From Candidatus Roizmanbacteria bacterium GW2011_GWA2_37_7 (GTDB taxonomy: Bacteria > Patescibacteriota > Microgenomatia > UBA1406 > GWC2-37-13), in assembly GCA_000990445.1 (NCBI GenBank), contig LBTJ01000001.1, forward strand, positions 1 through 55,545: DNA of 55,545 nt, given 5' to 3'. Both the position numbers and the translations under genes were made by a program. Below the pieces are notes generated by a model. The model worked only from the letters and a program-made list of their open reading frames with translations. It was not told the DNA's origin and did no database searches. Every line of letters begins with the position of its first letter. The first letter of the stretch is position 1. This document shows positions 1 to 14,709 of the stretch, piece after piece.

Positions 1-579
1 AAGTCAGAAGAGACATTTATATATTTAGCCATGATAGGACTCATGCTCAGAAGAACGGAGGTCTCAAATAAGGGCTAAAGAATCCAAACAGGCTCTAAGC
101 TTGCTGGATTCCCGAGTATCAGATTGGGCTGGACAATTGTTCCACGGTCACTTTCAAATAAAAAGATAGAGAAAGGACAACTTAATTCAATATGGAGGAG
201 AAGACAGCAGACGGGTTTCAATGGTGCCTCAGTTATTGTTCAAGAAGGTGGAATTGCGGCATTATCATCTGAAGGAATAAAAGAAAGTAATAAAAATATT
301 GATTATTACATGACTAACACCGCTTTAATTAAAAGCACCTGTAACAAAATAGGTTTTAAATCATATGGTGGGACGAATGCCCCTTATGTATGGTTAAAAA
401 CTCCGCAAAAAATGAAATCGTGGGACTTTTTTGATTTTCTTCTTAAAAAAGCTAGTACTATTTGTGCTCCAGGAATAGGTTTTGGTTCCTCATGTGAAGA
501 TTTTTTTAGACTCTCAGGATTTGCCAAAAAAGAGGATATTAAGGGAGCTTTACGATGTATGCAAAGGGCATTCCTTTAA
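1..579 (+). pseudogene. dapL: LL-diaminopimelate aminotransferase (DapL-type class I aminotransferase), 3' part only, interrupted by an in-frame stop
   Basis: Frame-1 translation gives SKLAGFPSIRLGWTIVP, FNGASVIVQEGG, YGGTNAPYVWLKTPQKMKSWDFFDFLL, PGIGFG and FFRLSGF, which are C-terminal signatures of DapL-family aminotransferases. Similarity continues upstream of the TTG at 124 to about nt 79 and then meets TAA at 76-78. The 5' part lies off-window. Confidence 0.55.
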
Positions 580-629
580 AGTATTTTTACCATTTTGTTT
601 CATGCCTTATAGCATTATTATACGAATCC

Positions 630-658
630 CGTCAACCTTCCTGACAATTCTGTCATTC
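630..658 (+). promoter_or_regulatory. Copy 1 of a 29-nt operator-like motif containing the palindrome TGACA-N4-TGTCA
   Basis: The sequence is cgtcaaccttccTGACAattcTGTCAttc. It is 27/28 identical to the copy at 1967-1994 and lies in the intergenic region downstream of the dapL fragment. Confidence 0.5.
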
Positions 659-897
659 TCTTTCTCCCCCTTTTTCCATATATTGAATCTGTTTCTTGTT
701 TGAGAGGTTAGGCGAGGTTGCAATAGCCGTGACCTCAACCTGATCTCAAAAACCAGAAGCACCTCAACAATCTGTGTGACGCATCTTGTATGAAAGGAGA
801 ATTCTCATGCGTCAAAAGCTTGTGTTCTTGGTCGTGATCACAAGCGAAAAACCAACCGATTTTGTCCTTATTGCCGTTAATTTTGAGGTTAAATACT

Positions 898-1938
898 TTA
901 TGAAGACTCGAATTTATGAATTCTTTGGCAATAATGAATCGTAGTTATGTCTGCTGGACTATAATATTCAATTTCAAATCTTGGATCATCATAAAGCGGA
1001 ACAACATATATATTATATGTCAATCTCATTCCTTGATACATAATGATTAAATTTATATACCATTCGTCTTTAATGATAGATCTCTGCAAAGATCTAAAAT
1101 GAACAATAAATCGTAACAAATTCTCGTGCCAAATAACTCTATCATTTCCCATTAATATTTTATTCATTTGAAAAGCTGGATCAAAAAGAATTTCAATCGC
1201 AGTTGGATTTTCCTTATGAATATTGGACATTTCTTCTTTTTTCATATCAAGGATTTTACTATGTTTATTATTTATATATATAACCCGCCAACAAAAATCA
1301 TATAAGACTGCTGAATACTGATATGACTCTAATACTGGTGCCATTGTTTCTTGAACTGACTTTATTTCTTGTTTCGTAGGCATATAATTACATAACAATA
1401 AAATATTATTTATTTCTTGTTTTTGGAGTCCAAGCACATTGCAGTATTTTTCAATAAAATTTTTATCAATATTTGTTGAATCACCCCTTTCAATTTTGTC
1501 AATAAAATCATAATCTGATACATTAAGGGCAAGCATCATTTCTGATAAAGTTATATTTTTTTGAATGCGATATGTTTTTAATAGTGAACTAATATCTTGT
1601 ATTGTATTTTGATTAATAATTTTTTCTAAAAACTTAGGAAGGTTTATTTTCTCTTGATCAGTTAAGTAACCTTGGTTTGCTGCTTCAAAAAAATGGTTTA
1701 CTTCAGAAATCAACCGTATTGCTCCACGTTTGATAAAAATATTTACAATTGTTAATAATATTCTTCTATCGCTAGGAACTCTTGTTCCGTTTTGCCACCT
1801 TGTAAATAAAGAGCTTTCATACACAATGCCTTCTTGAGCAAGAAGATCTCCAAATTCGGAAAGTGTTTCGATTTCTGCACGAAGACGATATTTTTTAAAT
1901 AGTTTTGCAAAGCTTATCCTGCTTGAAGTTTTTTTCAT
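898..1938 (-). CDS. XRE-family transcriptional regulator with two helix-turn-helix modules and an uncharacterised C-terminal domain
   Basis: 346-aa ATG ORF. The N-terminal FAKLFKKYRLRAEIETLSEFGDLLAQEG...SLFTRWQNG is HTH_XRE-like. A second HTH-like stretch is LLKTYRIQKNITLSEMMLALNVSDYDFIDKIERG. The remaining ~170 aa were not recognised. Confidence 0.6.
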   Translation of the reverse strand: MKKTSSRISFAKLFKKYRLRAEIETLSEFGDLLAQEGIVYESSLFTRWQNGTRVPSDRRILLTIVNIFIKRGAIRLISEVNHFFEAANQGYLTDQEKINLPKFLEKIINQNTIQDISSLLKTYRIQKNITLSEMMLALNVSDYDFIDKIERGDSTNIDKNFIEKYCNVLGLQKQEINNILLLCNYMPTKQEIKSVQETMAPVLESYQYSAVLYDFCWRVIYINNKHSKILDMKKEEMSNIHKENPTAIEILFDPAFQMNKILMGNDRVIWHENLLRFIVHFRSLQRSIIKDEWYINLIIMYQGMRLTYNIYVVPLYDDPRFEIEYYSPADITTIHYCQRIHKFESS

Positions 1939-1965
1939 AGGCAGAAGCTATTATAGCCTACTTCC

Positions 1966-1994
1966 AGTCAAACTTCCTGACAATTCTGTCATTC
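1966..1994 (+). promoter_or_regulatory. Copy 2 of the TGACA-N4-TGTCA operator-like motif, in a divergent promoter region
   Basis: The sequence is agtcaaacttccTGACAattcTGTCAttc. It lies 29-56 nt upstream of the regulator ATG at 1938 (minus strand) and 33 nt upstream of the MazG-like ATG at 2027. Confidence 0.55.
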
Positions 1995-2026
1995 ACTTTT
2001 TTGATTCTCATAGGTATAAAGTTTGT

Positions 2027-2356
2027 ATGAAGAAACAAAAAAATCAAAGTATCACGATGCATAAACTTAAAAATATGCTCTGGGATCTTACTGATGGTAA
2101 AGATTGGGAAGATAAATATTACCCCGACAACCTTGCAAAATCGATTGTCATAAGCTCAAATGACCTTTTAAAAGAATTTCAATGGGTAGACAACGTAGAT
2201 TCATGGGAAAAAATCAATAATGAAAAAGGTAAACAAAAAATTGCATATGAGATGATTCATGTTATTTATTACACAATGATGCTCGCAGAAATCATGAAAA
2301 TTGATATTGTCACATATCTGCAAATGAGACTTAGAGAAAAATATAGCTTAGTGTAA
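2027..2356 (+). CDS. MazG-like / DCTPP1-like nucleotide pyrophosphohydrolase-fold protein, possibly catalytically divergent
   Basis: 109-aa ORF. DWEDKYYPDNLAKSIVISSNDLLKEFQW followed by IAYEMIHVIYYTMMLAEIMKIDI matches the all-alpha MazG/dCTPase pattern (xFQW helix, then ExxD helix). Several acidic metal ligands appear substituted. Confidence 0.55.
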   Translation: MKKQKNQSITMHKLKNMLWDLTDGKDWEDKYYPDNLAKSIVISSNDLLKEFQWVDNVDSWEKINNEKGKQKIAYEMIHVIYYTMMLAEIMKIDIVTYLQMRLREKYSLV

Positions 2357-2552
2357 TTGCGCCTTATATCTTTGCTCTTTTTTTAAAAATAATTTTCAAA
2401 GGTATCCCTATACAAATATAAAAGAATAAAAAAATACCTATAATGCCTGCAAAAATAAGTAACAATATATTTTCTATATTCCTTCTCATAGATACTACTT
2501 AAGTTAAAAGTATATTCGCGCCTTGTAGTATAAATTCCTTAACACGAAATAA

Positions 2553-2581
2553 GAATGACAAAACTGTCAGAAAAGCTGACC
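2553..2581 (-). promoter_or_regulatory. Copy 3 (inverted orientation) of the TGACA-N4-TGTCA operator-like motif
   Basis: The reverse complement reads ggtcagcttttcTGACAgtttTGTCAttc, which is 23/29 identical to copy 1 with both palindrome half-sites intact. It lies just downstream of the stop of 2597..3166. Confidence 0.45.
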
Positions 2582-2596
2582 ACAGGAAGCTTATTT

Positions 2597-3166
2597 TTAC
2601 GCGGGATTTTCTCTCATGTGCTTTACGATCATGTCACGAAGAAGTTTTGATTTGGTGACGCCTCGTTCTTTTGCTGCGTCATCGATATATTGGAGAAGTT
2701 TGGGGCTGAGGAAAAAATTAAAGCGTTTGTCCCGTTTTTCACGGGCAATTTCTAGAGCATTTCGAAGGACTTTCCTATAGTTGTCATTGTTATAGCTCTT
2801 AATAATGAGTTTTTCATCTTCTATGCCTGATAAAAAATATGGGATATTGTCTTTGTAATAAAGAACTATTGTGGGTTTTGATGATTCAAGGGATTTTTGT
2901 ACAATAAATCCATTCCCCAAACTATGAGCGCTTGATTCAATAATACAAATATCAGCTTCCTGAATACACTTCATTTTCTTACGATAGTTTTCAACCTGCG
3001 CCTTCCTACCCTTAGCCATAAAATCAATATATTGTTCATAGGTGATTGACACGGCTTCGTCATCCACATGAGAATAACCCATATGTTCAAGCACTTCATA
3101 AATATGACGATAATATTTTCCGAATTCTTTTTCCCCTGCATAAGTAGCACCAAAAAATACTTTCAT
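2597..3166 (-). CDS. Nucleoside 2-deoxyribosyltransferase-like (NDT/DNPH1/SLOG-type Rossmannoid) domain fused to a C-terminal ribbon-helix-helix (CopG-like) DNA-binding domain
   Basis: 189-aa ORF. MKVFFGATYAG...EADICIIESSAHSLGNGFIVQKSLESSKPTIVLY fits the NDT-family layout. The C-terminal KRFNFFLSPKLLQYIDDAAKERGVTKSKLLRDMIVKHM is a typical RHH. Confidence 0.55.
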   Translation of the reverse strand: MKVFFGATYAGEKEFGKYYRHIYEVLEHMGYSHVDDEAVSITYEQYIDFMAKGRKAQVENYRKKMKCIQEADICIIESSAHSLGNGFIVQKSLESSKPTIVLYYKDNIPYFLSGIEDEKLIIKSYNNDNYRKVLRNALEIAREKRDKRFNFFLSPKLLQYIDDAAKERGVTKSKLLRDMIVKHMRENPA

Positions 3167-3183
3167 ACAATAATTATAATAGA

Positions 3184-5286
3184 TTAATAAACCATCTCAA
3201 ATTGAAATTTAAACCTTGCATTCCATGGATAATCCCCACCAAGCATAATATATCGGATACTATCCTGCACAACAGGAAAAATTCTTTGAATAACCTCAAC
3301 AATTTTAAGCTCTTTTTCATCTTTTTTCTTGCTCGTATCTCCTGCAATCTGAACCATATTGATGTATGCATCTCGCACAGGCTTAATAAATAACAGCTGT
3401 TGCATGTACGATACAAAATAATTATTACTTAATGGTAAGATTTCTATATGTTTTGAAAGCTCATCGGTTTGCAAATGTGAAAAATTTCTTGTCATGGTAA
3501 CGTCGATTTTTTTCAATGCAAGTTCTTGCTCATTTTTCATTCGTTCTAGTTTTAATAAACTTTCTTGTGAGCCTTGGACAATAACATGTATTTTCTTGTT
3601 TACCCATTGTATAAATAAAAGATGTTTCTGTCTATTGTTTAATTTCAATTTACCATGTAAATATGAAATATCACCAAAAAACTGCTCAATATACTCAATA
3701 TTATGAATAATATTTTGATTATTTACCTGCAAATATTTATAAAGAACAAAGTCTGATTGAAATCTTTGTATAAAAACTTTTTTAATTTTTTGAAGAGCTT
3801 CTTGAGTGAATAAACTAGCGTCTTCCTGTCCTATTGATTTATTTTTATACAATAGCTGAAACAGCATTTTTGCTTTAGTAAACATATTTATAAAATTATG
3901 AGTCACAGTCATTTTTCTTCGTATATTGCAAATTTTTGTTTTTACCTTTACAAAATTGATAAGGATATGCTTGGACACGAATATTGCATTTGGGTTTTTA
4001 AAACGTTCAAGGAATGCAATAGTTGTATCAACATTATGAGTATGCATTCGTAATGGTGAATCGAATATTTTGCTTTCTAATCCTTCTTGTAGTATTTTTT
4101 TTAATTCTTTTCGTGTAAACGCAGAATCCTCATGAAGAAGTTTTCCACGATAATTAAAGTCAAGAAATCCTGAAAATCCCACACTTAGCTTTGTATAATT
4201 TTTTAATAACCATTGATACTGTGCAATTTCCTGACAATGAAAAGGGGTAAGAAATGATTTTTTCCAATTTTTGATCAACTTTGTATCTGTTAATTGGAGG
4301 ATAACTGAGTGCATCCAAATATTTGAACGCTCTGTATCCAGATGATCTATCTGTTTGCCCCGTACATGTAGAGTAGCTTGATCAATATGAAACTGCTTGT
4401 AGTATGTGGCGTATTTCTCTTTAAGATATTGTTTTACTATTTGAAGAATCTCTGGTCCAAAGTATGTATATAAAACCCATGCCTTGATATGTGTATCAGG
4501 ATCATGGTTTGCAGGACTTAATCTACACTTCTTTTCTAATGCTCGCATATATGGCTCAACCATCTCAAACCAATTCTTTAAATAACCACGCGTTCCAAGC
4601 TTCAAATCAGTAAATGGCACTGTCACTAGTATATTATTGGGGTCATGCAGTCGAACATACCTTTTTACTGCATGGACAATTCCATCGTATACCCGTTGGG
4701 TTACAGACTCTGCATCCTGGATTCCATATTCTTCAAACCGTAAATACCAAGGAAATGTTTCGTCATACATAATGTTAAGACCATGTCGCGGTATAAGCGC
4801 TCCAGTAACCTGTGTCCATGTAGGAAACTGCAAACACATCCTAGTGATATACTGGCATATTAATGGAGATAACTCATTATCTTGTTGCAGAATGCGAATA
4901 ATTTTCGTATCAATACTTTCTAGGGCGCACGCTCCACCAAGTGCAATAATTTGATCATTAGGCAAACTTTTTTCCAACCACGATGAAAAATTCCCACCTA
5001 TCATAGCAATCTTTGTTACGGCTTCTCCATAGATATTTACCAATCTATCAAACTCATTTTCAGATATACTAAACCATCCTTTTGAATATACCGAGTTTGA
5101 TAAATACGACCTCTGTTCTATTGAAGAAATTGAACGACCTTTCGTTATTGATTCATATGCGCTTTGTGCATATTCCAGTCTAGATAAATCAAAAGCAGCA
5201 TGCGACTTTGGATTCTCTGAAATCACCAAAGCCACAGCATTCATAATCTTTTGATACTCTTGATAAGTTAATAAATTCTGTATCAT
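3184..5286 (-). CDS. Large (700 aa) cytoplasmic protein of unknown function, co-oriented with and 17 nt upstream of the NDT-RHH gene
   Basis: Uninterrupted 2.1-kb ATG ORF. No signal peptide, transmembrane segment or catalytic motif that I can recognise. The nested antisense ORFs are shadows. Confidence 0.7.
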   Translation of the reverse strand: MIQNLLTYQEYQKIMNAVALVISENPKSHAAFDLSRLEYAQSAYESITKGRSISSIEQRSYLSNSVYSKGWFSISENEFDRLVNIYGEAVTKIAMIGGNFSSWLEKSLPNDQIIALGGACALESIDTKIIRILQQDNELSPLICQYITRMCLQFPTWTQVTGALIPRHGLNIMYDETFPWYLRFEEYGIQDAESVTQRVYDGIVHAVKRYVRLHDPNNILVTVPFTDLKLGTRGYLKNWFEMVEPYMRALEKKCRLSPANHDPDTHIKAWVLYTYFGPEILQIVKQYLKEKYATYYKQFHIDQATLHVRGKQIDHLDTERSNIWMHSVILQLTDTKLIKNWKKSFLTPFHCQEIAQYQWLLKNYTKLSVGFSGFLDFNYRGKLLHEDSAFTRKELKKILQEGLESKIFDSPLRMHTHNVDTTIAFLERFKNPNAIFVSKHILINFVKVKTKICNIRRKMTVTHNFINMFTKAKMLFQLLYKNKSIGQEDASLFTQEALQKIKKVFIQRFQSDFVLYKYLQVNNQNIIHNIEYIEQFFGDISYLHGKLKLNNRQKHLLFIQWVNKKIHVIVQGSQESLLKLERMKNEQELALKKIDVTMTRNFSHLQTDELSKHIEILPLSNNYFVSYMQQLLFIKPVRDAYINMVQIAGDTSKKKDEKELKIVEVIQRIFPVVQDSIRYIMLGGDYPWNARFKFQFEMVY

Positions 5287-5361
5287 ATAATAATGTGATG
5301 TATATTTTGAGCAATAAATTATACTATAAGATATATTTATTTCTACAAAAATACATATTTC

Positions 5362-7056
5362 TTACTCATATCTCTCAAAGTACACTTTTAGTATCTCTTT
5401 TGCAATAGGAGCCGCAATATCAGACCCTTGTCCTCCTTCTTCAACTAAAACCGTAAGTACGATCTCTGGATTGTCAAATGGTGCAAAAACTGTAAACCAT
5501 GCATGAGGTTTCCCAGATTTTGCGTGAGATTCAGCTGTTCCGGTTTTACACCCAACAGAGATATTTGTAGTAATTACTGCTGTTGGACTTGCCTCTTTCT
5601 GAATACTATCAGACTGTATTTCTTGTTCTGAGATATTCTCTTGCTGTTGAACAGAAAAATTGAAAAATGGCCACCCAGTACCTCCGGTTTGACAGGCTTT
5701 GTGCATTCCTTCCCGAATCAACTCATATGTTGTATTTGACATCAGAAGTTCTTTACACGATGCGTCGTGTGCAGATTGTACTTTCAGAACTTTCGGATCA
5801 CACAAATACCCGCCGTTTGCAAATACCGCAGTTGCCCGTGCTATCTGTAATGGTGTTGTGGCAACATATCCTTGGCCGATTGATAAATTGTACGTATCTC
5901 CCAAAAACCATCGTTCTCCAAATGTATCTTGTTTCCAAAATGTGGATGGAATAATACCCACTGCTTCGTCAAGCCCAAGGTTTGATGAGTTTTGAAATCC
6001 AAAAATTTCAGCCCATTTTTTAATTTTTTCTGGGCCAAGTTTTCCACCAAGAAGATAAAAATATATATCATTGGAGCGTTGAAGCGCCTTGAGCATATTT
6101 ACTTCTCCCTCTGTGCGGCCATACTCCAGATAATACCAATTATGAAATTTCAGTGGTCCAGCTTCAAGAACTCCGCTATCCATAATAGTCTCATCCGGCG
6201 TGATCACTTTCTCTTCAAGACCGGCTGCAGCAATAAATAATTTAAACGTGGATCCAGGAGCATACACGCCTTCTGTTGCTCGGTTGAAAAGCGGTTCATC
6301 CTTGTCATCAATCAGCTTTTTGGCTAATTCCGAGTCTCCGTCCTCAAAAATCTGCGGATCATATCCGGGTGTTGAGGCCAAAATAAGTACATCGCCTGTG
6401 TCGGGCTTTAGTCCAATCACTGCTCCTTTCGTATCGCCCAGAAGCTCCATTGCCTTCTCTTGAAGTACGATGTCGAGGGCAAGCTTCAGATCGTCTCCTG
6501 CCTTTGGATCAAGAACGCTAAGTGTTTTGATATATTCACCATGCGCATCAATTTCGACAAGCTTCTTTCCGCGCCTACCGCGAAGCTCGCATTCATAGAG
6601 TTGTTCTACTCCTTTTTTTCCAACTTTATCTCCATACTTAAGTTTGTTCATACACGAGTCTGATTCCAAATCATCTGTATCGGCAATTTGCCGATACCCA
6701 ATGATATGACTTATTACATCAGAGTATTTATAGATTCTGTTTGAAGTTACACGCTCGTCATTGTCAGAAATATCTGGAGTTGTATTTGAGACAAGAATAA
6801 CGCCTTTTCGATCAACAATCGTACCTCGAGGCGCTTCAATAACAATCTCTTTGACTCTATTGTCGTCAGAAAGTACTGAGTAATAATTGCCTTTGACAAT
6901 AGTAAGCCTGAATAGTTGAACAAGTGCTATCAAAAAAAATATTGCCACACCAAGTCCATACAGTAAAAATAGGCCTTGCGAATATGACCGTTGCCTTGTG
7001 TCAAATGACATTGAGCCTGTATCGCCTTTGCGGATATAAGATAGTTTTTGATTCAT
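5362..7056 (-). CDS. mrdA: Penicillin-binding protein 2 / class B transpeptidase
   Basis: 564 aa with an N-terminal membrane anchor. Contains the three transpeptidase motifs: SxxK (PGSTFK), SxN (SNDIYF) and KTG (KTGTAE). Confidence 0.85.
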   Translation of the reverse strand: MNQKLSYIRKGDTGSMSFDTRQRSYSQGLFLLYGLGVAIFFLIALVQLFRLTIVKGNYYSVLSDDNRVKEIVIEAPRGTIVDRKGVILVSNTTPDISDNDERVTSNRIYKYSDVISHIIGYRQIADTDDLESDSCMNKLKYGDKVGKKGVEQLYECELRGRRGKKLVEIDAHGEYIKTLSVLDPKAGDDLKLALDIVLQEKAMELLGDTKGAVIGLKPDTGDVLILASTPGYDPQIFEDGDSELAKKLIDDKDEPLFNRATEGVYAPGSTFKLFIAAAGLEEKVITPDETIMDSGVLEAGPLKFHNWYYLEYGRTEGEVNMLKALQRSNDIYFYLLGGKLGPEKIKKWAEIFGFQNSSNLGLDEAVGIIPSTFWKQDTFGERWFLGDTYNLSIGQGYVATTPLQIARATAVFANGGYLCDPKVLKVQSAHDASCKELLMSNTTYELIREGMHKACQTGGTGWPFFNFSVQQQENISEQEIQSDSIQKEASPTAVITTNISVGCKTGTAESHAKSGKPHAWFTVFAPFDNPEIVLTVLVEEGGQGSDIAAPIAKEILKVYFERYE

Positions 7057-7062
7057 TACCTC

Positions 7063-8841
7063 TTATTCTATCAATCTTTTTTCTTCTTCTGAAGCAACTA
7101 CCTGAAAACCGACATGAGACTGTCCGGCAAAGAAAAGCCCTTCTCCAATCCCTGCAGAAAGCAAAAAATGTTTTTCTCCTCCTGTCAGGTAAAATGTTTT
7201 GGTAATGCGGTCTACTGCAGCTGTTGATTGTTTGAGAATAATCTGAAGACTTGAGTTTGTGATGATTGCCTTTCCTTCGTCTGTTGCCAAAAAATCCTCA
7301 ACGTCTTGCGTGATCGTGGTCATGCCAAGTTTATATTTTCTCGCACGTTTTGCAAAATTATGAAGATATGCTCCTGAGTCTTTATTTTTTATAAGATACC
7401 ATGCCTCATCAACGATCAACACTCGTTTCCGATGTTCACCGCGTCGCACGCGATGCCATATATAGTCAAGGATAATATACATTGCTACGGGCCGTAAATT
7501 TTCCTCCAAATCGCGAATTCCAAACACGGTAAATGTATTTTTAATATCAAAGTTCGAGTGGTTATTAAAAATTCCTGCTGCCGACCCTTCCACAAATTTC
7601 TCAAGCCTATCAGCAAGTTCCCTTGCCTCAATCGCCTCCATGCCGATCAAAATCTTATACAAATCTTCAAGAAGCGGCGGTTCTTTCATAAATGTTTCAG
7701 GCTCCTGGGTGATTCCTTTTTCCCGGTATGTTAATACAAGCGCCCGGTCAAGCAGCGCGTCTTGAGAAGGGGTTAGTTCTCCCATAATAACCTTCATGAG
7801 TGAGTGCAAATCAAGAATTTTGTTTGGAAGCTCATCTGGTTCTGGATTTTCGTCGTTCAAATCAAATGGATTGAGCTTATACTCTGAGCTTGCTGAAAAA
7901 TCTACAAATTCTCCGCCTAAATTTTTACAAAGCGTTCTGTACTCATTCTCAGGGTCAAGAATAATAACGTCAACATCCATCATCAAAAGCCTCAAAGCCT
8001 CAAGTTTCACCATAAAACTTTTTCCTCCTCCTGACTTTCCTAAAATCACTGCATTTGCATTCTCGAGAGTAAAACGATCAAAAATAATTAAGCTTCCGTC
8101 GTGCTGATTGATACCGTACATGACCCCTTCGTTTCGGGTAAGAGAGGCTGTTGAAAATGGAAATGTCATAGCAAGTGAAGTCGTGTCCATATTCCGCCAT
8201 ATCTGAAGTTGATCTCGGAACATCGGTAAAGTGGACTTAAATCCTTCTTCTTGCTCAAGCGTCGCTTGTTTTGAAACAATAAGAAGTGACGACAGCGTTG
8301 AGTCGATCTCTTTGGTCACACTATTGAGCTCTGCCTCGGTGTCGGCAGGTACTGTGATATAGAGTGCAAACTGGAAAAACCGCTCTGCACCTTTTGCAAG
8401 CTCAGCTTGAAGAGAAAGCGCATCGTCAAGCGCAACCTGCACAGTCGGGTCTATCACTTTTCCTGCTTTTATATCACTTTCAACTGTTGCCTGCATCTCA
8501 GCAATTTTCCTCTTCAGTTCATTGAGAATGGCTTTTGATTCCGAAGGATAAATAAACATTGAGATGTTGAGCGGATGATCGTAGGTGATAAGCGAGTTCA
8601 TCCAGTTTGCCGAAACATAGCGCGGATATCCAACTACAAACAATGTCCGATAATATTTCGCGTCGATTTTAATATGATTAAAATCTACCTCAACATATGA
8701 AGGGGCGACAATATCTCTGATTGCCACATCGCCTTTGGACAACACATCAGCTACTTTGAGAACGCCACCGGGGATATTGCTTTTGTTTGCGTCCTTATTA
8801 CTATCTTTCTTGTTTATTTTATTTTTATTATTGAATAACAT
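7063..8841 (-). CDS. virB4: VirB4/TraC-like type IV secretion ATPase, C-terminal major part of an apparently split VirB4
   Basis: 592 aa with Walker A GKSGGGKSF and Walker B RVLIVDEAW. YYRTLFVVGYPRYV and the TTITQDVEDF region resemble Gram-positive VirB4 homologues (PrgJ/Orf16-like). Confidence 0.8.
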   Translation of the reverse strand: MLFNNKNKINKKDSNKDANKSNIPGGVLKVADVLSKGDVAIRDIVAPSYVEVDFNHIKIDAKYYRTLFVVGYPRYVSANWMNSLITYDHPLNISMFIYPSESKAILNELKRKIAEMQATVESDIKAGKVIDPTVQVALDDALSLQAELAKGAERFFQFALYITVPADTEAELNSVTKEIDSTLSSLLIVSKQATLEQEEGFKSTLPMFRDQLQIWRNMDTTSLAMTFPFSTASLTRNEGVMYGINQHDGSLIIFDRFTLENANAVILGKSGGGKSFMVKLEALRLLMMDVDVIILDPENEYRTLCKNLGGEFVDFSASSEYKLNPFDLNDENPEPDELPNKILDLHSLMKVIMGELTPSQDALLDRALVLTYREKGITQEPETFMKEPPLLEDLYKILIGMEAIEARELADRLEKFVEGSAAGIFNNHSNFDIKNTFTVFGIRDLEENLRPVAMYIILDYIWHRVRRGEHRKRVLIVDEAWYLIKNKDSGAYLHNFAKRARKYKLGMTTITQDVEDFLATDEGKAIITNSSLQIILKQSTAAVDRITKTFYLTGGEKHFLLSAGIGEGLFFAGQSHVGFQVVASEEEKRLIE

Positions 8842-12663: not shown

Positions 12664-13974
12664 TTATTTTTTATTCGACGGACATCGTTTATTGCCACAA
12701 ATATATGTCTTATCATCAAGCTGCAGATTGCCTTTTTTATTTTGGCAATGAGGACATGTGACACATACTTCTTTTGACTTTCCACCAATCAATTGCATAC
12801 TATCAACTATTGAATACCCCCCCTGAACAAGGTTTGTTAATGTGTCCATTTCTGCCATCTGTGTCACAGGACAAGAAGATCCAGATATAGTAAGTTCCTG
12901 ATACTTAGCCATGCTTCCTGCAAACAAATATAATGTTCGTGGGTCTGAAATATCATACTTAAATACTTTCATTTGTTTTGCATCTTGCGCAAAACGATAT
13001 TCATCGGTTTTTTCCTGTCTTAATGTGCGGTTTATGATCCGCGCTGTATTAAACATTGCACCAATAAGTTGCTTTCCTTTTTCTTCAAGATCGTTGAATA
13101 CAGCATCGCCTTTATTTAATGTACGCATGTTCATTTTATGGATAACTCTCATATATTCCTCAAGCCATGGTCTAATATATGGCAATACTTTGTGTCTGAA
13201 CTGTTCGGAATATACGATATCTTGTTCATGTATCCCAACCAAATCATACAGATACGCAAGGTCTTCGTCTTTTTGTGAGTTGTAGAGTATTGGATTATGA
13301 AGAAAGTCTATATCAGACGTTGGTCGAGAAGTTTGGGCACCGATCAAAGCATTCATCTTCTGAAAAATTTCTTTACTTCTGTATGTTGTGTTTCGTGGCT
13401 CATCATACCGAATTAATAACTCACGCATTGGTCTTCCGTTGAGTGCCTTATCATACTCATCTACCATAAACACAAATGCAAATCCATAGTCTGCAAATTT
13501 TGGAGGCGAAACCCATAATGCACGGTTGCACGAGCTAGTAAGCCCCTCTGATATTTTGTCAAGACCTTGTCCTTCATGCCATTCACGCGATCCATATCCC
13601 GCCGTTGCAGCGGCGTGGCGATACATATCGCTCACATTTGTCCCAACCATTTCCAAAACTCCATCGCTTCGCACAATTCCTGATAATTTTTTTACTCCTA
13701 CATTCCCTGCAAACTCTTCAAGATACGATAGGACATTTTCTGAAATATAATAATTTTGTTGTTCTTGAGTAAGATGAGCTAATTTTTGTATTCGTTCCGC
13801 GTCGTTTTTTGGAGAATATGATTCAAAAATTGATCGCTCATCTTCTGCCATATGGGCTTCGGCTCGTTGCCAGATTGGAATCGATGCTTCATAGTCGGCT
13901 CGAGAAACAATAAAATCAGACTCAAAAGGAAGCGCTTTATAGTAATTAATTTGAGGAGACTCAACAAATGACAT
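12664..13974 (-). CDS. Hypothetical 436-aa protein with a C-terminal Cys4 zinc ribbon
   Basis: Long ATG ORF. The C-terminus is CVTCPHCQNKKGNLQLDDKTYICGNKRCP. The rest was not recognised. Confidence 0.65.
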   Translation of the reverse strand: MSFVESPQINYYKALPFESDFIVSRADYEASIPIWQRAEAHMAEDERSIFESYSPKNDAERIQKLAHLTQEQQNYYISENVLSYLEEFAGNVGVKKLSGIVRSDGVLEMVGTNVSDMYRHAAATAGYGSREWHEGQGLDKISEGLTSSCNRALWVSPPKFADYGFAFVFMVDEYDKALNGRPMRELLIRYDEPRNTTYRSKEIFQKMNALIGAQTSRPTSDIDFLHNPILYNSQKDEDLAYLYDLVGIHEQDIVYSEQFRHKVLPYIRPWLEEYMRVIHKMNMRTLNKGDAVFNDLEEKGKQLIGAMFNTARIINRTLRQEKTDEYRFAQDAKQMKVFKYDISDPRTLYLFAGSMAKYQELTISGSSCPVTQMAEMDTLTNLVQGGYSIVDSMQLIGGKSKEVCVTCPHCQNKKGNLQLDDKTYICGNKRCPSNKK

Positions 13975-14189
13975 ATGATTCCCTGCTCGGGGCCAGGTAC
14001 CATACGGGACCTGCTTTGGGGGTTTGGTCGGTCTTCGGACTCTTCGACTCGCTTCGCTCGCTCAGAGCAAGCTTAAGAAACGATTCAAATTACCGCTGCG
14101 GCACAGTTGCTGATTTACACAGCATTCCCGTTTTGAAAGGGCGTCTTCCCATCCCGACGTAACGTCGGGAAAGTGACGTTCACCAAACC
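13975..14189 (-). promoter_or_regulatory. GC-rich structured 5' leader, a candidate riboswitch or cis-regulatory RNA of unclassified type
   Basis: A ~215-nt GC-rich island in AT-rich DNA abuts the ATG at 13974. A closing helix pairs GGUUUGGU with ACCAAACC about 150 nt apart. Perfect hairpins include CCCGACG-UUA-CGUCGGG, UGCUG-UGUAAAU-CAGCA and GUC-CGAA-GAC. A 3' CCCC/GGG helix overlaps the AGGGA Shine-Dalgarno-like site. Confidence 0.5.
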
Positions 14190-14282
14190 AATAATTATTA
14201 AAGTATCCATAGAATACTCTGAAAGAGTTCATAATTCAAGCGTGATACAATAAATTTGTGGGAAAAGTGCATCTTCCGTATA

Positions 14283-14709
14283 TCAGACTTCTTTCATAGC
14301 AACTTCTTGTTTTGAGTATTTGCGTGCGAGTATAAATAAAAGATCTGACAACCTATTGAGATATCGAAGTATAATGTCATCATTTTTAACTTTTTTATTT
14401 TTATTATTAATATACTGAACTATTCTTCGTTCTGCTGACCGTACTATTGTCCGGGCAACATGTAGCCTAGCTGTTTGTTCTGATCCCTGTGGAAGAACAA
14501 ATCGAATCAGTTTTGGCAATATGGTTTCTCGTTGTTGTATAGATTTTTCTATATAGGTAAGATTGTTCACTACCTGTTTCGCGTCGAGTTTTGCTCCGGA
14601 AAGATATGCCATGATCAAATATAAATGGAATTGGATCGTTTTTTTTAACTCGAGTACCACCAAAAAGTGCTGTGGTTCCATCATCTCCTGTTTTTGTTGT
14701 AATACTCAT
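14283..14709 (-). pseudogene. pduO: PduO-type ATP:cob(I)alamin adenosyltransferase with an internal deletion plus frameshift
   Basis: The N-terminal frame gives MSITTKTGDDGTTALFGGTRVKKNDPI. The C-terminal frame gives IQFHLYLIMAYLSG...LPQGSEQTARLHVARTIVRSAERR...RYLNRLSDLLFILAR. The two frames meet near 14629-14633 and the expected EAYGTIDELNS segment is absent. Confidence 0.65.

What the first reader, a model, noticed from the sequence alone, without database searches (positions are those of the whole stretch)
898..5286. Nucleotide-centred accessory locus: XRE regulator, MazG-like protein, NDT-like::RHH fusion and a 700-aa orphan
Four neighbouring genes with no obvious housekeeping role sit between a decayed dapL and PBP2. 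They are a double-HTH XRE regulator (898..1938), a divergently transcribed MazG/DCTPP1-like protein (2027..2356), and a convergent two-gene unit. That unit is a 700-aa orphan (3184..5286) followed 17 nt later by a nucleoside 2-deoxyribosyltransferase-like domain fused to a ribbon-helix-helix (2597..3166). MazG-like and NDT/SLOG-like domains are established nucleotide-processing or nucleotide-sensing modules and recur in phage-defence and modified-base contexts. RHH and XRE domains are typical switch components of conflict systems. Add a large uncharacterised partner and a shared operator motif, and this is the most plausible undescribed system in the window. The alternatives are a defence or abortive-infection module and a regulated nucleotide-salvage module. 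Function is inference only.
Basis: partly seen in the sequence, partly recalled or inferred. Interest (0 to 1): 0.7.

Follow-up and report, generated by a model that had tools for sequence, protein, structure and literature searches.

The report
Swappable enzyme–regulator cassette beside a small regulon
The four genes are real but form two separate units in a Roizmanbacteria-type (candidate phyla radiation) genome: a swappable pair made of a large unknown enzyme and a DNA-binding regulator built on a dead nucleotide-enzyme fold, and next to it a small operator-controlled regulon. Nothing found here marks it as a nucleotide-processing or phage-defence system.

Summary
They do not form one system.

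**Unit A (about 2968..5330).**
- It holds the 700-aa protein and the 189-aa DNPH1/NDT-like::RHH protein.
- The 700-aa protein belongs to a rare family: 79 hits among 1.84 billion representatives, no Pfam match and no confident structural match.
- The pair has its own conserved promoter. It sits after PBP2 in a syntenic XerC–RNaseH–PrgI–TraC–VirB4–PBP2 block.
- The slot is polymorphic. It holds a 700-aa gene, an unrelated 389-aa gene, or nothing.
- Genomes 88–92% identical in the flanks lose all DNA similarity from the promoter to about codon 66 of the 189-aa gene.
- The regulator's NDT-like domain co-varies with the upstream gene. Its RHH does not.

**Unit B (about 600..2600).**
- It holds an HTH-N::MmyB-like regulator, a MazG-like protein and a 40-aa peptide.
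- These share the operator TGACA-N4-TGTCA, which marks a regulon across relatives.

**Other results.**
- Both "nucleotide enzyme" domains lack their canonical catalytic residues.
- No PADLOC family was matched credibly, and there were no viral relatives.

**Best reading.** Unit A is a co-adapted enzyme plus sensor-regulator cassette, with a separate regulon beside it. A toxin–antitoxin-like reading is not excluded.

The parts
3184..5286 (-). 700-aa protein: a member of a rare, uncharacterised, enzyme-like family. It has an alpha/beta N-domain (about residues 1-435) and a long helical C-domain. It is the variable 'X' gene of the cassette.
   Evidence: ORF. No hit in Pfam, NCBIfam, PHROGs or PADLOC. 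24 clusters and 79 representatives among 1.84e9 proteins. AF2 pLDDT 87.5 for the full model and 83.4 for the N-domain. Foldseek found no hit with E<0.1; the top weak hits are cyclodipeptide synthases. Family-wide invariant residues are G117 G118 C120 E123 E176 Y200 R309 K311 Q312 D314 H315 D376 H385. No TM segment.
2597..3166 (-). 189-aa regulator: a catalytically degenerate DNPH1/NDT-like domain (about residues 1-140) fused to a C-terminal ribbon-helix-helix (about 145-185).
   Evidence: The family profile matches DNPH1/Rcl at 9e-9. In that alignment, catalytic Glu aligns with I88, Asp with K64 and Tyr with F4. RHH families are hit in relatives, and PHROG CopG-like scores 6.6e-5. 206 clusters. 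The RHH is the most conserved part.
2968..5316 (-). Swapped cassette segment: the 700-aa gene plus the first ~66 codons of the 189-aa gene. This stretch has no DNA similarity to 389-type relatives whose flanks are similar.
   Evidence: blastn of the window against L039, L045 and L040 gives similarity at 2606-2974 and from 5309-5317 onward, with nothing in between. L003 vs L039 and L030 vs L039 have flanks 88-92% identical and the same breakpoints.
5318..5330 (-). Conserved promoter element CTTATAGTATAAT (extended -10) in front of the cassette. It is shared by 700-type and 389-type loci.
   Evidence: The element sits in the PBP2-to-X spacer of most loci. It has one exact copy in the window. A promoter-like TAGAAA-16-TATAAT lies at 5345..5318.
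898..1938 (-). 346-aa regulator: an extra N-terminal HTH ('HTH-N', residues 1-105), an XRE HTH (116-176) and a MmyB-like ligand-binding domain (about 190-340).
   Evidence: Pfam and PHROG HTH hits. The profile matches 3pxp at 3.4e-7, and MLTR_LBD is hit in 4 of 9 relatives. In relatives HTH-N also occurs alone, on NB-ARC/TPR proteins and on an NDT-like domain.
1966..1996 (+). Operator site 2 (GTCA-N7-CTGACAATTCTGTCA). It lies midway between the divergent -10 boxes of the 346-aa gene and the MazG-like gene.
   Evidence: The same motif lies about 36 nt upstream of the MazG-like start codon in 20 listed loci (about 11 distinct contexts).
2027..2356 (+). 109-aa MazG/DCTPP1-like all-alpha protein with a degenerate metal-binding site.
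   Evidence: 4qgp 5e-14 and DCTPP1 1e-6. The canonical E..E..E / E..D positions read S43, D46, K49 / E74 (K in relatives), H78 (N or T in relatives).
2367..2489 (-). 40-aa hydrophobic small ORF, 67 nt downstream of operator site 3.
   Evidence: Translation. Homologues in L060 (1e-7), L034 (6e-5) and L011.
2556..2570 (-). Operator site 3. It overlaps a terminator-like hairpin just after the stop codon of the 189-aa gene.
641..655 (+). Operator site 1. It heads a conserved leader of about 130 nt and a 45-aa relic ORF (808..945) of a secreted-protein gene that is intact in L025.
5362..8841 (-). Context: PBP2 (5362..7056) and a VirB4-like ATPase (7063..8841). They are the conserved left flank of the cassette.
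   Evidence: Pfam. Synteny.

Best explanation
The region holds two adjacent but separate units.

**Unit A is a two-gene cassette with its own promoter.** It sits at a fixed chromosomal site after PBP2.
- The 700-aa protein is a soluble enzyme of an undescribed family. Its N-domain is a Rossmann-like alpha/beta fold with an invariant Cys/Glu/Arg-Lys-Gln-Asp-His/Asp/His set. Its C-domain is long and helical.
- The 189-aa protein is a transcription factor. Its highly conserved RHH binds DNA as a dimer.
- Its DNPH1-like domain has lost catalysis. I infer that it acts as the oligomerisation and sensing domain, matched to the upstream gene. It would do this either by binding a small molecule made or used by that enzyme, or by binding the enzyme itself.
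- In related genomes, recombination has replaced the enzyme gene and the first ~66 codons of the regulator together: 700-aa type, 389-aa type, or none.

**Unit B is a small regulon.** A palindromic operator, TGACA-N4-TGTCA(-N7-TGAC), is centred about 42 nt upstream of short-leader or leaderless promoters.
- It is probably bound by the HTH-N/MmyB-like regulator.
- It would control the regulator's own gene, the catalytically degenerate MazG-like gene, a 40-aa membrane peptide and a now-decayed secreted-protein gene.

**Shown:** gene content, homologies, missing catalytic residues, synteny, cassette breakpoints, domain-specific co-variation and operator distribution.

**Inferred:** DNA binding by the RHH and HTH domains, the sensing role, enzyme activity of the 700-aa protein, and which regulator binds the operator.
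For: **Pairing of the 700-aa and 189-aa genes.**
- They are adjacent in all CPR loci but L017, including non-PBP2 contexts L018, L065 and L070.
- The slot is polymorphic: 700-aa, 389-aa, HMGL-like or empty.

**Co-variation.**
- Fitted model: id189 = 28 + 0.44*idPBP2 + 11*sameX.
- When PBP2 is more than 80% identical, 189-aa identity is 58% across cassette types against 92% within a type.
- The divergence is confined to the NDT-like domain (47% vs 62%). The RHH is unchanged (83% vs 82%).
- All 15 type-discriminating positions lie in residues 7-95.

**Breakpoints.** Flanks are 88-92% identical at the DNA level, with no similarity from the promoter to codon ~66.

**Promoter.** The element CTTATAGTATAAT is conserved in both cassette types.

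**Dead catalytic sites.**

**Modularity of the NDT-like domain.** It also occurs fused to HTH-N instead of RHH (L025, L067). This fits a modular sensing or oligomerisation domain.

**Operator.**
- There are 33 exact copies in 1.2 Mb (window plus loci). By my own estimate about one to two would be expected by chance.
- They lie about 36 nt before MazG-like starts, about 63 nt before AstE_AspA-like starts, and 40-140 nt before HTH-N genes.

**Regulator type.** MmyB-like assignment.

**Enzyme-like conservation of the 700-aa family.** It holds down to 16-20% identity.
Against: - No biochemical or expression data exist for any of these proteins.
- The fold of the 700-aa protein has no confident match (best Foldseek E 0.1-0.25). 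"Enzyme" therefore rests only on the pattern of invariant polar residues.
- The co-varying N-terminal part of the regulator could reflect protein-protein binding, as in antitoxins, rather than ligand sensing.
- The 189-aa gene often occurs without any upstream X gene, so its core role does not need X.
- Which regulator binds the operator is not resolved. The RHH protein is present in every locus sampled, because the loci were chosen through it or through the 700-aa protein.
- Distant 700-aa homologues in Nitrospira lack the 189-aa partner.
Confidence: 0.55

Rival explanations
1. Unit A is a toxin-antitoxin-like or effector-immunity-like conflict cassette. X (the 700-aa or 389-aa protein) is a toxic or effector enzyme. 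The 189-aa protein neutralises it through the NDT-like domain and auto-represses the promoter through its C-terminal RHH. This is the same layout as HicA-HicB, with the toxin gene first and an antitoxin carrying a C-terminal DNA-binding domain.
For: The cassette is polymorphic at a fixed site and has sharp recombination breakpoints. X is the fastest-evolving gene of the block: 49% identity against 74-91% for its neighbours, and 22-31% among 389-aa proteins. The regulator's N-terminal subdomain switches together with X. A weak HicB-like/CopG-antitoxin hit covers the RHH part. The cassette has its own conserved promoter and a lower GC than its flanks.
Against: The 189-aa gene is lineage-wide and strongly conserved. 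It often stands without X, in housekeeping or envelope contexts such as after Pth or YkuD and beside MTase and GT4 genes. The 700-aa family also occurs without the partner in Nitrospira, next to AroM, ATP-grasp and AsnB-like genes. The 189-aa and 700-aa proteins have no PADLOC hit. Neither family has viral relatives. 700 aa is very large for a type II toxin.
Confidence: 0.2
2. The 700-aa protein is a cell-envelope, peptide or peptidoglycan-related enzyme that belongs functionally with PBP2 and the T4SS-like operon. The 189-aa RHH protein is the regulator of that operon, like the RHH accessory proteins of conjugation systems.
For: The position after PrgI-TraC-VirB4-PBP2 is fixed and on the same strand. 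Distant 189-aa genes follow a YkuD L,D-transpeptidase and sit beside glycosyltransferases. Neighbours of 700-aa homologues include a dipeptide epimerase, AstE_AspA-like proteins, peptidase S51, DUF1177, AroM and a TupA-like ATP-grasp. The RHH part hits NikA-like and RepB-type models. The weak structural resemblance is to cyclodipeptide synthases.
Against: The cassette has its own promoter and is swapped independently of PBP2. The slot can be empty. The neighbouring peptide-metabolism genes lie in the variable region and differ from locus to locus. The Foldseek evidence is below significance.
Confidence: 0.15
3. One reading: all four genes form one nucleotide-centred defence or abortive-infection system, in which MazG-like and NDT-like domains process or sense nucleotides under XRE/RHH control.
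For: The four genes are adjacent here and in L014 and L030, and they co-occur less tightly in L001-3 and L031-33. Both folds are authentic relatives of nucleotide enzymes. Binding of a nucleotide-like ligand is not excluded.
Against: The MazG/XRE module is absent from about half of related loci and combines freely with 700-type and 389-type cassettes. The operator does not precede the 700/189 unit. Catalytic residues are missing in both domains. The 189-aa and 700-aa proteins have no PADLOC hit, and the other two gave only a generic HTH hit and a weak Cas4 hit. There are no viral relatives. The locus is a syntenic chromosomal site, not a mobile island.
Confidence: 0.05

Closest known systems
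DNPH1/Rcl and nucleoside 2-deoxyribosyltransferases (Pfam PF05014)
   Same: The N-terminal ~138 residues of the 189-aa family align to DNPH1 over the full domain (E 9e-9). Four relatives reach PF05014.
   Different: The catalytic Glu nucleophile aligns with Ile/Leu/Val, the catalytic Asp with Lys (or Met), and the catalytic Tyr with Phe. The domain is fused to an RHH or, in paralogues, to an HTH. It behaves like a sensing or oligomerisation module of a transcription factor.
RHH regulators and antitoxins with a C-terminal DNA-binding domain (CopG, NikA, RepB-RCR_reg, HicB)
   Same: It has a C-terminal ribbon-helix-helix with an invariant DKRFNFF..P..L...TKS..R signature. The gene lies directly downstream of a partner gene, and a conserved promoter element lies in front of the pair.
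   Different: The partner-side domain is a DNPH1-like fold. The partner is a 700-aa or 389-aa protein, not a small toxin. The family is vertically conserved across Microgenomates and often has no partner.
MazG / DCTPP1 (RS21-C6) all-alpha NTP pyrophosphatases
   Same: Clear homology over the whole 109-aa protein (4qgp 5e-14).
   Different: The metal-chelating E-x2-E-x2-E and E-x2-D positions are mostly replaced: S43, K49, and K/N/T in relatives. NTP hydrolysis by the canonical mechanism is therefore unlikely.
MmyB-like transcription regulators (XRE HTH plus PAS-like ligand-binding domain; PDB 3pxp, Pfam MLTR_LBD)
   Same: Residues ~116-340 of the 346-aa protein and its 269-aa relatives match 3pxp (3.4e-7) and MLTR_LBD. 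A pseudo-palindromic site lies upstream of the target promoters, at an activator-like position (about -42).
   Different: It carries an additional N-terminal HTH domain. In relatives that domain is free-standing or fused to NB-ARC/TPR or NDT-like modules.
Cyclodipeptide synthases / HUP-class Rossmann-like enzymes
   Same: They are the only recurring structural neighbours of the 700-aa N-domain. Several independent CDPS entries rank at the top, followed by LarE and NAD synthetase. A conserved small-residue-plus-nucleophile motif (GGxCxxE) follows strand 1, where CDPSs carry their catalytic Ser (position recalled from my own knowledge).
   Different: E >= 0.2, probability <= 0.6 and TM <= 0.46, so this is not a demonstrated relationship. 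The protein is three times larger and has a 260-residue helical C-domain.
Chromosomal T4SS of Patescibacteria (PMC12102498)
   Same: The flanking PrgI, TraC-like and VirB4 genes match the chromosomal, monoderm-conjugation-like T4SS described for this group.
   Different: The passages of that paper I read and searched do not mention PBP2, the 189-aa regulator or the variable cassette. No evidence here ties the cassette to secretion.

Membership tests
DNPH1 / nucleoside 2-deoxyribosyltransferase | Sequence homology across the Rossmann-like domain | tested here: met
   Profile of 38 family members against PDB: DNPH1/Rcl E 9.4e-9, residues 3-138. PF05014 in 4 members.
DNPH1 / nucleoside 2-deoxyribosyltransferase | Catalytic Glu nucleophile (rat E93 / human E104, in GYELG), plus catalytic Asp (rat D69) and Tyr (rat Y13). 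Residue identities are from established knowledge of the family. | tested here: not met
   In the HMMER alignment Glu aligns with I88 (hydrophobic in the family consensus), Asp with K64 and Tyr with F4. The Asp column is pinpointed by the D69N and D69A mutant entries in the output.
Ribbon-helix-helix (CopG-like) DNA-binding domain | A beta-strand-helix-helix module recognisable by RHH family models | tested here: met
   RepB-RCR_reg in 12, NikA-like in 13, RHH_3 in 7 and RHH_1 in 4 of 38 members (best E 2e-5). PHROG CopG-like 6.6e-5. CopG in PDB reaches only E 0.1. No structure model was made for this protein.
MazG / DCTPP1 NTP pyrophosphatase | All-alpha MazG fold homology | tested here: met
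   4qgp 5.3e-14 and RS21-C6/DCTPP1 about 1e-6.
MazG / DCTPP1 NTP pyrophosphatase | Metal-binding acidic motif E-x2-E-x2-E ... E-x2-D | tested here: not met
   The aligned positions are S43, D46, K49 ... E74, H78 in the window. The last two are K and N/T in relatives.
MmyB-like transcription regulator | N-terminal XRE HTH followed by the MLTR ligand-binding domain | tested here: met
   Profile against 3pxp: 3.4e-7 over 180 positions. HTH_31 in 8 and MLTR_LBD in 4 of 9 relatives. The window protein on its own shows only sub-threshold HTH hits.
Known anti-phage defence systems (PADLOC-DB 2.0) | A match of any component to a defence-system model | tested here: not met
   Only a generic HTH model (1.5e-4) and a weak Cas4 hit for the MazG-like protein (0.014). 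Nothing for the 189-aa or 700-aa proteins.
Type II toxin-antitoxin system | Two adjacent co-transcribed genes, one a DNA-binding antitoxin that pairs specifically with the other | tested here: inconclusive
   Adjacency, a shared promoter and a partner-specific N-terminal segment are present. However, the 189-aa gene is often solitary and core-like.
Type II toxin-antitoxin system | Toxicity of one partner that is neutralised by the other | not testable with these tools
   This needs expression experiments.
Cyclodipeptide synthase | Structural match to the CDPS fold with its catalytic Ser/Tyr/Glu/Tyr set | tested here: inconclusive
   Several CDPS entries rank at the top, but with E 0.2-0.3 and TM <= 0.46. 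Catalytic residues could not be mapped.

The most novel reading that the evidence does not exclude
The cassette is a new kind of polymorphic two-gene module in candidate-phyla-radiation bacteria. A fast-evolving enzyme with a previously unseen fold (or its 389-aa alternative) is paired with a regulator/neutraliser whose dead DNPH1-like domain is exchanged together with it. The module would act in conflict or host interaction, for example as an effector-immunity or toxin-antitoxin pair placed beside the T4SS.
Probability: 0.2. Interest if true: 0.75.

Novelty: new variant of a known kind. Interest (0 to 1): 0.5.

Why it matters
- **A widespread regulator type with no prior description found.** The full-text search I ran turned up no earlier description of it. 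It is a transcription-factor family spread across Microgenomates, with more than 200 clusters, built from a catalytically dead DNPH1/NDT fold plus an RHH.
- **An example of co-inheritance.** A sensing subdomain and its partner gene are exchanged as one recombination unit at a fixed chromosomal site.
- **A rare protein family worth solving.** The 700-aa family has 79 representatives among 1.84 billion proteins. It has a confident AlphaFold model, a clear set of invariant polar residues and no recognisable relative. That makes it a good target for structure and activity work in a group of organisms whose biology is mostly unknown.
- **A caution for annotation.** "Nucleotide-enzyme domains plus XRE/RHH" is not enough to call a defence system. 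Here both enzyme domains are pseudo-enzymes.
- **A testable cis-element.** The operator regulon (MazG-like, AstE_AspA-like, small secreted or membrane proteins, HTH-N regulators) gives a concrete element to test in Patescibacteria, where almost no regulation has been mapped.

Tried and rejected
- **Family libraries.** Pfam, NCBIfam, PHROGs and PADLOC scans of the four single proteins gave only sub-threshold hits. Profiles built from relatives were needed.
- **700-aa protein against solved structures.** The sequence profile found only coiled-coil noise.
- **Foldseek on the 700-aa protein.** The full model was dominated by coiled-coil hits. The N-domain alone gave no significant hit against PDB or BFVD.
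- **Distant 700-aa homologues.** Ten of them, including 965-1001-aa forms with extra N-terminal regions, have no Pfam domain.
- **Alternative slot genes.** hhalign of the 700-aa family against the 389-aa and HMGL-like slot genes showed no relationship. The 389-aa protein is not related to the convergent class-I methyltransferases by BLAST.
- **Searches that returned nothing useful.** The contig look-up for P0190 found no record. One literature query was wasted on 'arom' prefix matches, and 'DUF1177' has no useful literature.
- **Rfam.** The conserved leader at 560..900 gave no match.
- **Promoter and terminator scan.** Counts were not above shuffled expectation overall, so only individual sites next to conserved elements were used.
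- **Class I SAM-methyltransferase reading of the 700-aa N-domain.** I considered and rejected it, because no methyltransferase appears among the Foldseek hits.
- **Simple vertical divergence as the cause of the cassette difference.** I rejected it, because the flanks are 88-92% identical at the DNA level.

Full report
**1. Observation**

| Coordinates | Strand | Length |
|---|---|---|
| 898..1938 | - | 346 aa |
| 2027..2356 | + | 109 aa |
| 2597..3166 | - | 189 aa |
| 3184..5286 | - | 700 aa |

- Flanks. PBP2 (5362..7056) and a VirB4-like ATPase (7063..8841) follow on the minus strand. An aminotransferase-like fragment precedes the region. Its Pfam Aminotran_1_2 hit (E 0.0016) is below the family cut-off, and it carries an in-frame stop at nt 76-78.
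- Composition. GC is 26-33% across most of the region against 39-44% in PBP2 and VirB4.
- Solubility. None of the four proteins has a transmembrane-like segment.
- Family libraries. Single-sequence scans gave only sub-threshold hits, so I built profiles from relatives.

**2. The organism and the conserved block**

Homologues of the 700-aa protein are full length and 33-49% identical. The records that carry a name are Roizmanbacteria or Woesebacteria (Microgenomates, candidate phyla radiation).

In every Roizmanbacteria-type contig with enough flank, the order on one strand is XerC/D-like, RNase H, PrgI, TraC-like, VirB4, PBP2, 700-aa, ~190-aa. The T4SS genes match the chromosomal, monoderm-conjugation-like system described for Patescibacteria (PMC12102498).

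Identity to the window in the closest relative (L001) is:

| Gene | Identity |
|---|---|
| XerC-like | 91% |
| PrgI | 78% |
| TraC-like | 89% |
| VirB4 | 90% |
| PBP2 | 74% |
| 189-aa protein | 76% |
| 700-aa protein | 49% |

The 700-aa gene is by far the fastest-evolving gene of the block.

**3. The 189-aa protein**

- A profile of 38 family members matches DNPH1/Rcl at E 9e-9 across residues 3-138. Relatives hit the RHH families RepB-RCR_reg, NikA-like, RHH_3 and RHH_1. The NDT-like::RHH call is therefore correct.
- The catalytic residues are missing. In the alignment the Glu nucleophile (GYELG) pairs with I88, the catalytic Asp with K64 and the catalytic Tyr with F4. The Asp column is unambiguous, because the D69N, D69A and wild-type Rcl entries differ only at that column. 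The roles of these residues come from established knowledge of DNPH1.
- The RHH segment (DKRFNFF..P..L...TKS..R) is the most conserved part of the protein.
- The family is much larger than the 700-aa family, with 206 clusters.

**4. The slot is polymorphic and the pair is a cassette**

*What fills the slot.* A metagenome scan with the 189-aa family returned 80 loci. tblastn mapping shows what lies between PBP2 and the 189-aa gene:
- a 700-aa gene;
- an unrelated ~389-aa gene with a weak methyltransferase-like hit;
- an HMGL-like gene (L026);
- nothing, in which case a convergent class-I methyltransferase lies downstream.

*Other contexts.* More distant 189-aa genes (35-48% identity) sit after peptidyl-tRNA hydrolase or a YkuD L,D-transpeptidase, beside methyltransferase and GT4 glycosyltransferase genes. 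The 700/189 pair also occurs outside the PBP2 context (L018, L065, L070). Only L017 among CPR-type loci has a 700-aa homologue without the partner.

*Co-variation.* At matched PBP2 divergence, 189-aa proteins linked to the same upstream gene type are about 11 points more identical. The fitted model is id189 = 28 + 0.44*idPBP2 + 11*sameX. In the bin with PBP2 above 80% identity, the figures are 58% across types (n=4) and 92% within a type (n=1).

| 189-aa pairs compared | NDT-like domain identity | RHH identity |
|---|---|---|
| Same upstream gene type | 62% | 82% |
| Different upstream gene type | 47% | 83% |

All 15 type-discriminating positions lie in residues 7-95. Several of them fall on columns that align with the DNPH1 phosphate loop, the catalytic Asp and the residue next to the phosphate-binding Ser. 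That mapping is my reading combined with recalled DNPH1 structure.

*Breakpoints.* DNA comparison makes the event explicit.
- L003 or L030 (700-type) against L039 (389-type) are 88-92% identical up to about 45 nt past the PBP2 stop.
- They then show no similarity until about codon 67 of the 189-aa gene, and are 72-76% identical from there on.
- In window coordinates the swapped segment is about 2968..5316.

*Promoter.* The left breakpoint abuts the conserved element CTTATAGTATAAT. It is present in both cassette types and has a single exact copy in the window, at 5318..5330.

**5. The 700-aa protein**

- Model. AlphaFold2 with 21 homologues gives a confident model (pLDDT 87.5, pTM 0.75). It has an alpha/beta N-domain of about 435 residues and a long helical C-domain. 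The N-domain alone gives pLDDT 83 and pTM 0.86.
- Structural comparison. Foldseek against PDB and BFVD finds nothing with E below 0.1. The only recurring weak neighbours are cyclodipeptide synthases (probability up to 0.6, TM up to 0.46), followed by LarE and NAD synthetase. This hints at a divergent HUP-class Rossmann-like fold at most. A sequence profile against PDB finds nothing.
- Rarity. An exhaustive profile search of 1.84 billion representatives finds only 79 proteins. Ten distant members have no Pfam domain.
- Conservation. Across 31 members down to 16-20% identity, the invariant set is G117 G118 C120 E123 P155 G162 E176 W180 Y200 F225 Y275 R309 K311 Q312 D314 H315 D376 H385 P618 L619 N622. 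That pattern is enzyme-like.
- Neighbours of distant homologues. In Nitrospira MAGs they lie next to AroM, TupA-like ATP-grasp and AsnB-like genes. In L017 the neighbours are peptidase S51 and DUF1177. In L006 they are a dipeptide epimerase and an AstE_AspA-like gene. This suggests a peptide or amino-acid theme, but the neighbours are not constant.

**6. The XRE/MazG unit**

*MazG-like protein.* It is a true homologue of 4qgp (5e-14) and DCTPP1 (1e-6). The canonical metal ligands are mostly replaced: S43, D46, K49 and E74, H78 in the window, with K and N/T at the last two positions in relatives.

*The 346-aa protein.* It combines an extra N-terminal HTH ("HTH-N", residues 1-105) with a MmyB-like regulator (3pxp 3.4e-7; MLTR_LBD in 4 of 9 relatives). 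In relatives HTH-N is:
- free-standing;
- fused to NB-ARC/TPR proteins of 699-725 aa;
- fused to an NDT-like domain.

CTGACA-N4-TGTCA occurs three times in the window against 0.13 expected, with a third half-site (GTCA-N7) beside it.

*The operator across loci.* In the window plus the 106 fetched loci, TGACA-N4-TGTCA occurs 33 times in 1.2 Mb. By my own estimate about one to two copies would be expected by chance. Where the copies lie:

| Position of the motif | Listed loci | Approx. distinct contexts |
|---|---|---|
| ~36 nt before a MazG-like start codon | 20 | 11 |
| ~63 nt before an AstE_AspA-like gene | 7 | 6 |
| 40-140 nt before an HTH-N-type gene | 8 | 6 |

Some sites count in two rows, because they lie between two divergent genes.

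*Site 2.* It lies midway between the divergent -10 boxes of the 346-aa gene and the MazG-like gene. That puts it about 42-43 nt from each predicted, nearly leaderless start. This is an activator-like position and is consistent with MmyB-type regulators. The step is inference.

*Site 3.* It lies after the stop codon of the 189-aa gene and 67 nt before a 40-aa hydrophobic ORF (2367..2489). That ORF has homologues in three other loci.

*Site 1.* It heads a conserved leader of about 130 nt and a 45-aa relic of a secreted-protein gene that is intact in L025.

*Relation to unit A.* No copy of the motif precedes the 700/189 unit. The MazG/XRE module is present within 2.4 kb of the 189-aa gene in about 12 of 25 distinct Roizmanbacteria-type loci, and it combines with both 700-type and 389-type cassettes.

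**7. Defence or phage links**

- PADLOC returns nothing for the 189-aa and 700-aa proteins. The other two give only a generic HTH hit and a weak Cas4 hit (E 0.014).
- None of the three families has a relative in 2.9 million viral contigs.
- BFVD gives no structural match.

**8. Interpretation**

The evidence supports two units.

- **Unit A** is a co-adapted enzyme plus regulator cassette at a fixed site. The RHH gives a constant DNA-binding function. The dead DNPH1-like domain, above all its first ~66 residues, is specific to the upstream gene.
- Two mechanisms fit unit A. In the first, the domain senses a small molecule linked to the enzyme. In the second, it binds the enzyme directly, as in toxin-antitoxin or anti-activator systems.
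- I prefer the sensor-regulator reading (0.55), for three reasons. The 189-aa gene is lineage-wide and often solitary. The NDT-like domain also recurs on other DNA-binding domains. The type-specific residues fall on pocket-equivalent columns. The TA-like reading keeps about 0.2.
- **Unit B** is an ordinary operator-controlled regulon that happens to lie next to unit A in a variable region.
- The single four-gene nucleotide-centred defence system is not supported.

**9. Novelty**

- Each fold or domain type other than the 700-aa protein is known.
- New here are the family-level architecture (pseudo-DNPH1::RHH), its cassette-style co-replacement with an upstream gene, and the 700-aa family itself.
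- A full-text search found no prior description.
- I rate this a new variant of a known kind, of moderate interest.

Noticed in passing
window 12664..14684 (-): A cobalamin riboswitch (14009..14202, Rfam 58.5 bits) lies upstream of a 436-aa ORF (12664..13974) that has no Pfam family. A cobalamin adenosyltransferase-like gene (14283..14684) sits just upstream of the riboswitch. The 436-aa protein may be an unrecognised B12-related protein or transporter.
   Followed up: partly
window 2367..2489 (-): A 40-aa hydrophobic small ORF (MRRNIENILLLIFAGIIGIFLFFYICIGIPLKIIFKKRAKI) lies between the MazG-like gene and the 189-aa gene, 67 nt downstream of operator site 3. It has homologues in L060 (E 1e-7), L034 and L011.
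   Followed up: partly
window 600..945 (+); L025 10998..11620 (-): Operator site 1 is followed by a conserved leader of about 130 nt. The leader contains a hairpin (GGTTGC-N7-GYRACC) with wobble and compensatory differences between the window and L025. A 45-aa relic ORF follows in the window. In L025 the same leader precedes an intact 138-aa protein with a signal peptide and no Pfam family. Rfam gave no match.
   Followed up: partly
L004 11369..13468; L006 13310..15487; L025 8822..9364; L067 10589..11374: The extra N-terminal HTH of the 346-aa regulator (HTH-N) is a mobile DNA-binding module. It also heads NB-ARC/TPR STAND proteins of 699-725 aa and small HTH-N::NDT-like proteins in the same variable region.
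   Followed up: partly
L019-L022 (Nitrospira MAGs), 9.9-14.9 kb: Distant homologues of the 700-aa protein (24-28% identity) sit next to an AroM-family gene in three independent loci. TupA-like ATP-grasp genes or ~500-aa proteins with a PP-loop-like motif but no Pfam hit lie nearby. This could be a separate uncharacterised peptide or amino-acid pathway.
   Followed up: partly
L026 8001..9168; L077 10001..13058: Some genomes carry two copies of the 189-aa NDT-like::RHH gene, tandem in L026 and about 2 kb apart in L077.
   Followed up: no
window 1..579 (+): The aminotransferase-like reading frame that runs in from the window start has one in-frame stop at nt 76-78, just before the conserved GSKxAGF..RLGW lysine motif. 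This fits a pseudogene, but the gene is cut by the window edge.
   Followed up: partly
window 3173..3200 (-): A strong promoter-like site (TTGAGA-16-TATAAT, 11 of 12) lies inside the 3' end of the 700-aa gene, 7 nt before the start of the 189-aa gene. The regulator may therefore also be transcribed on its own as a leaderless mRNA.
   Followed up: no
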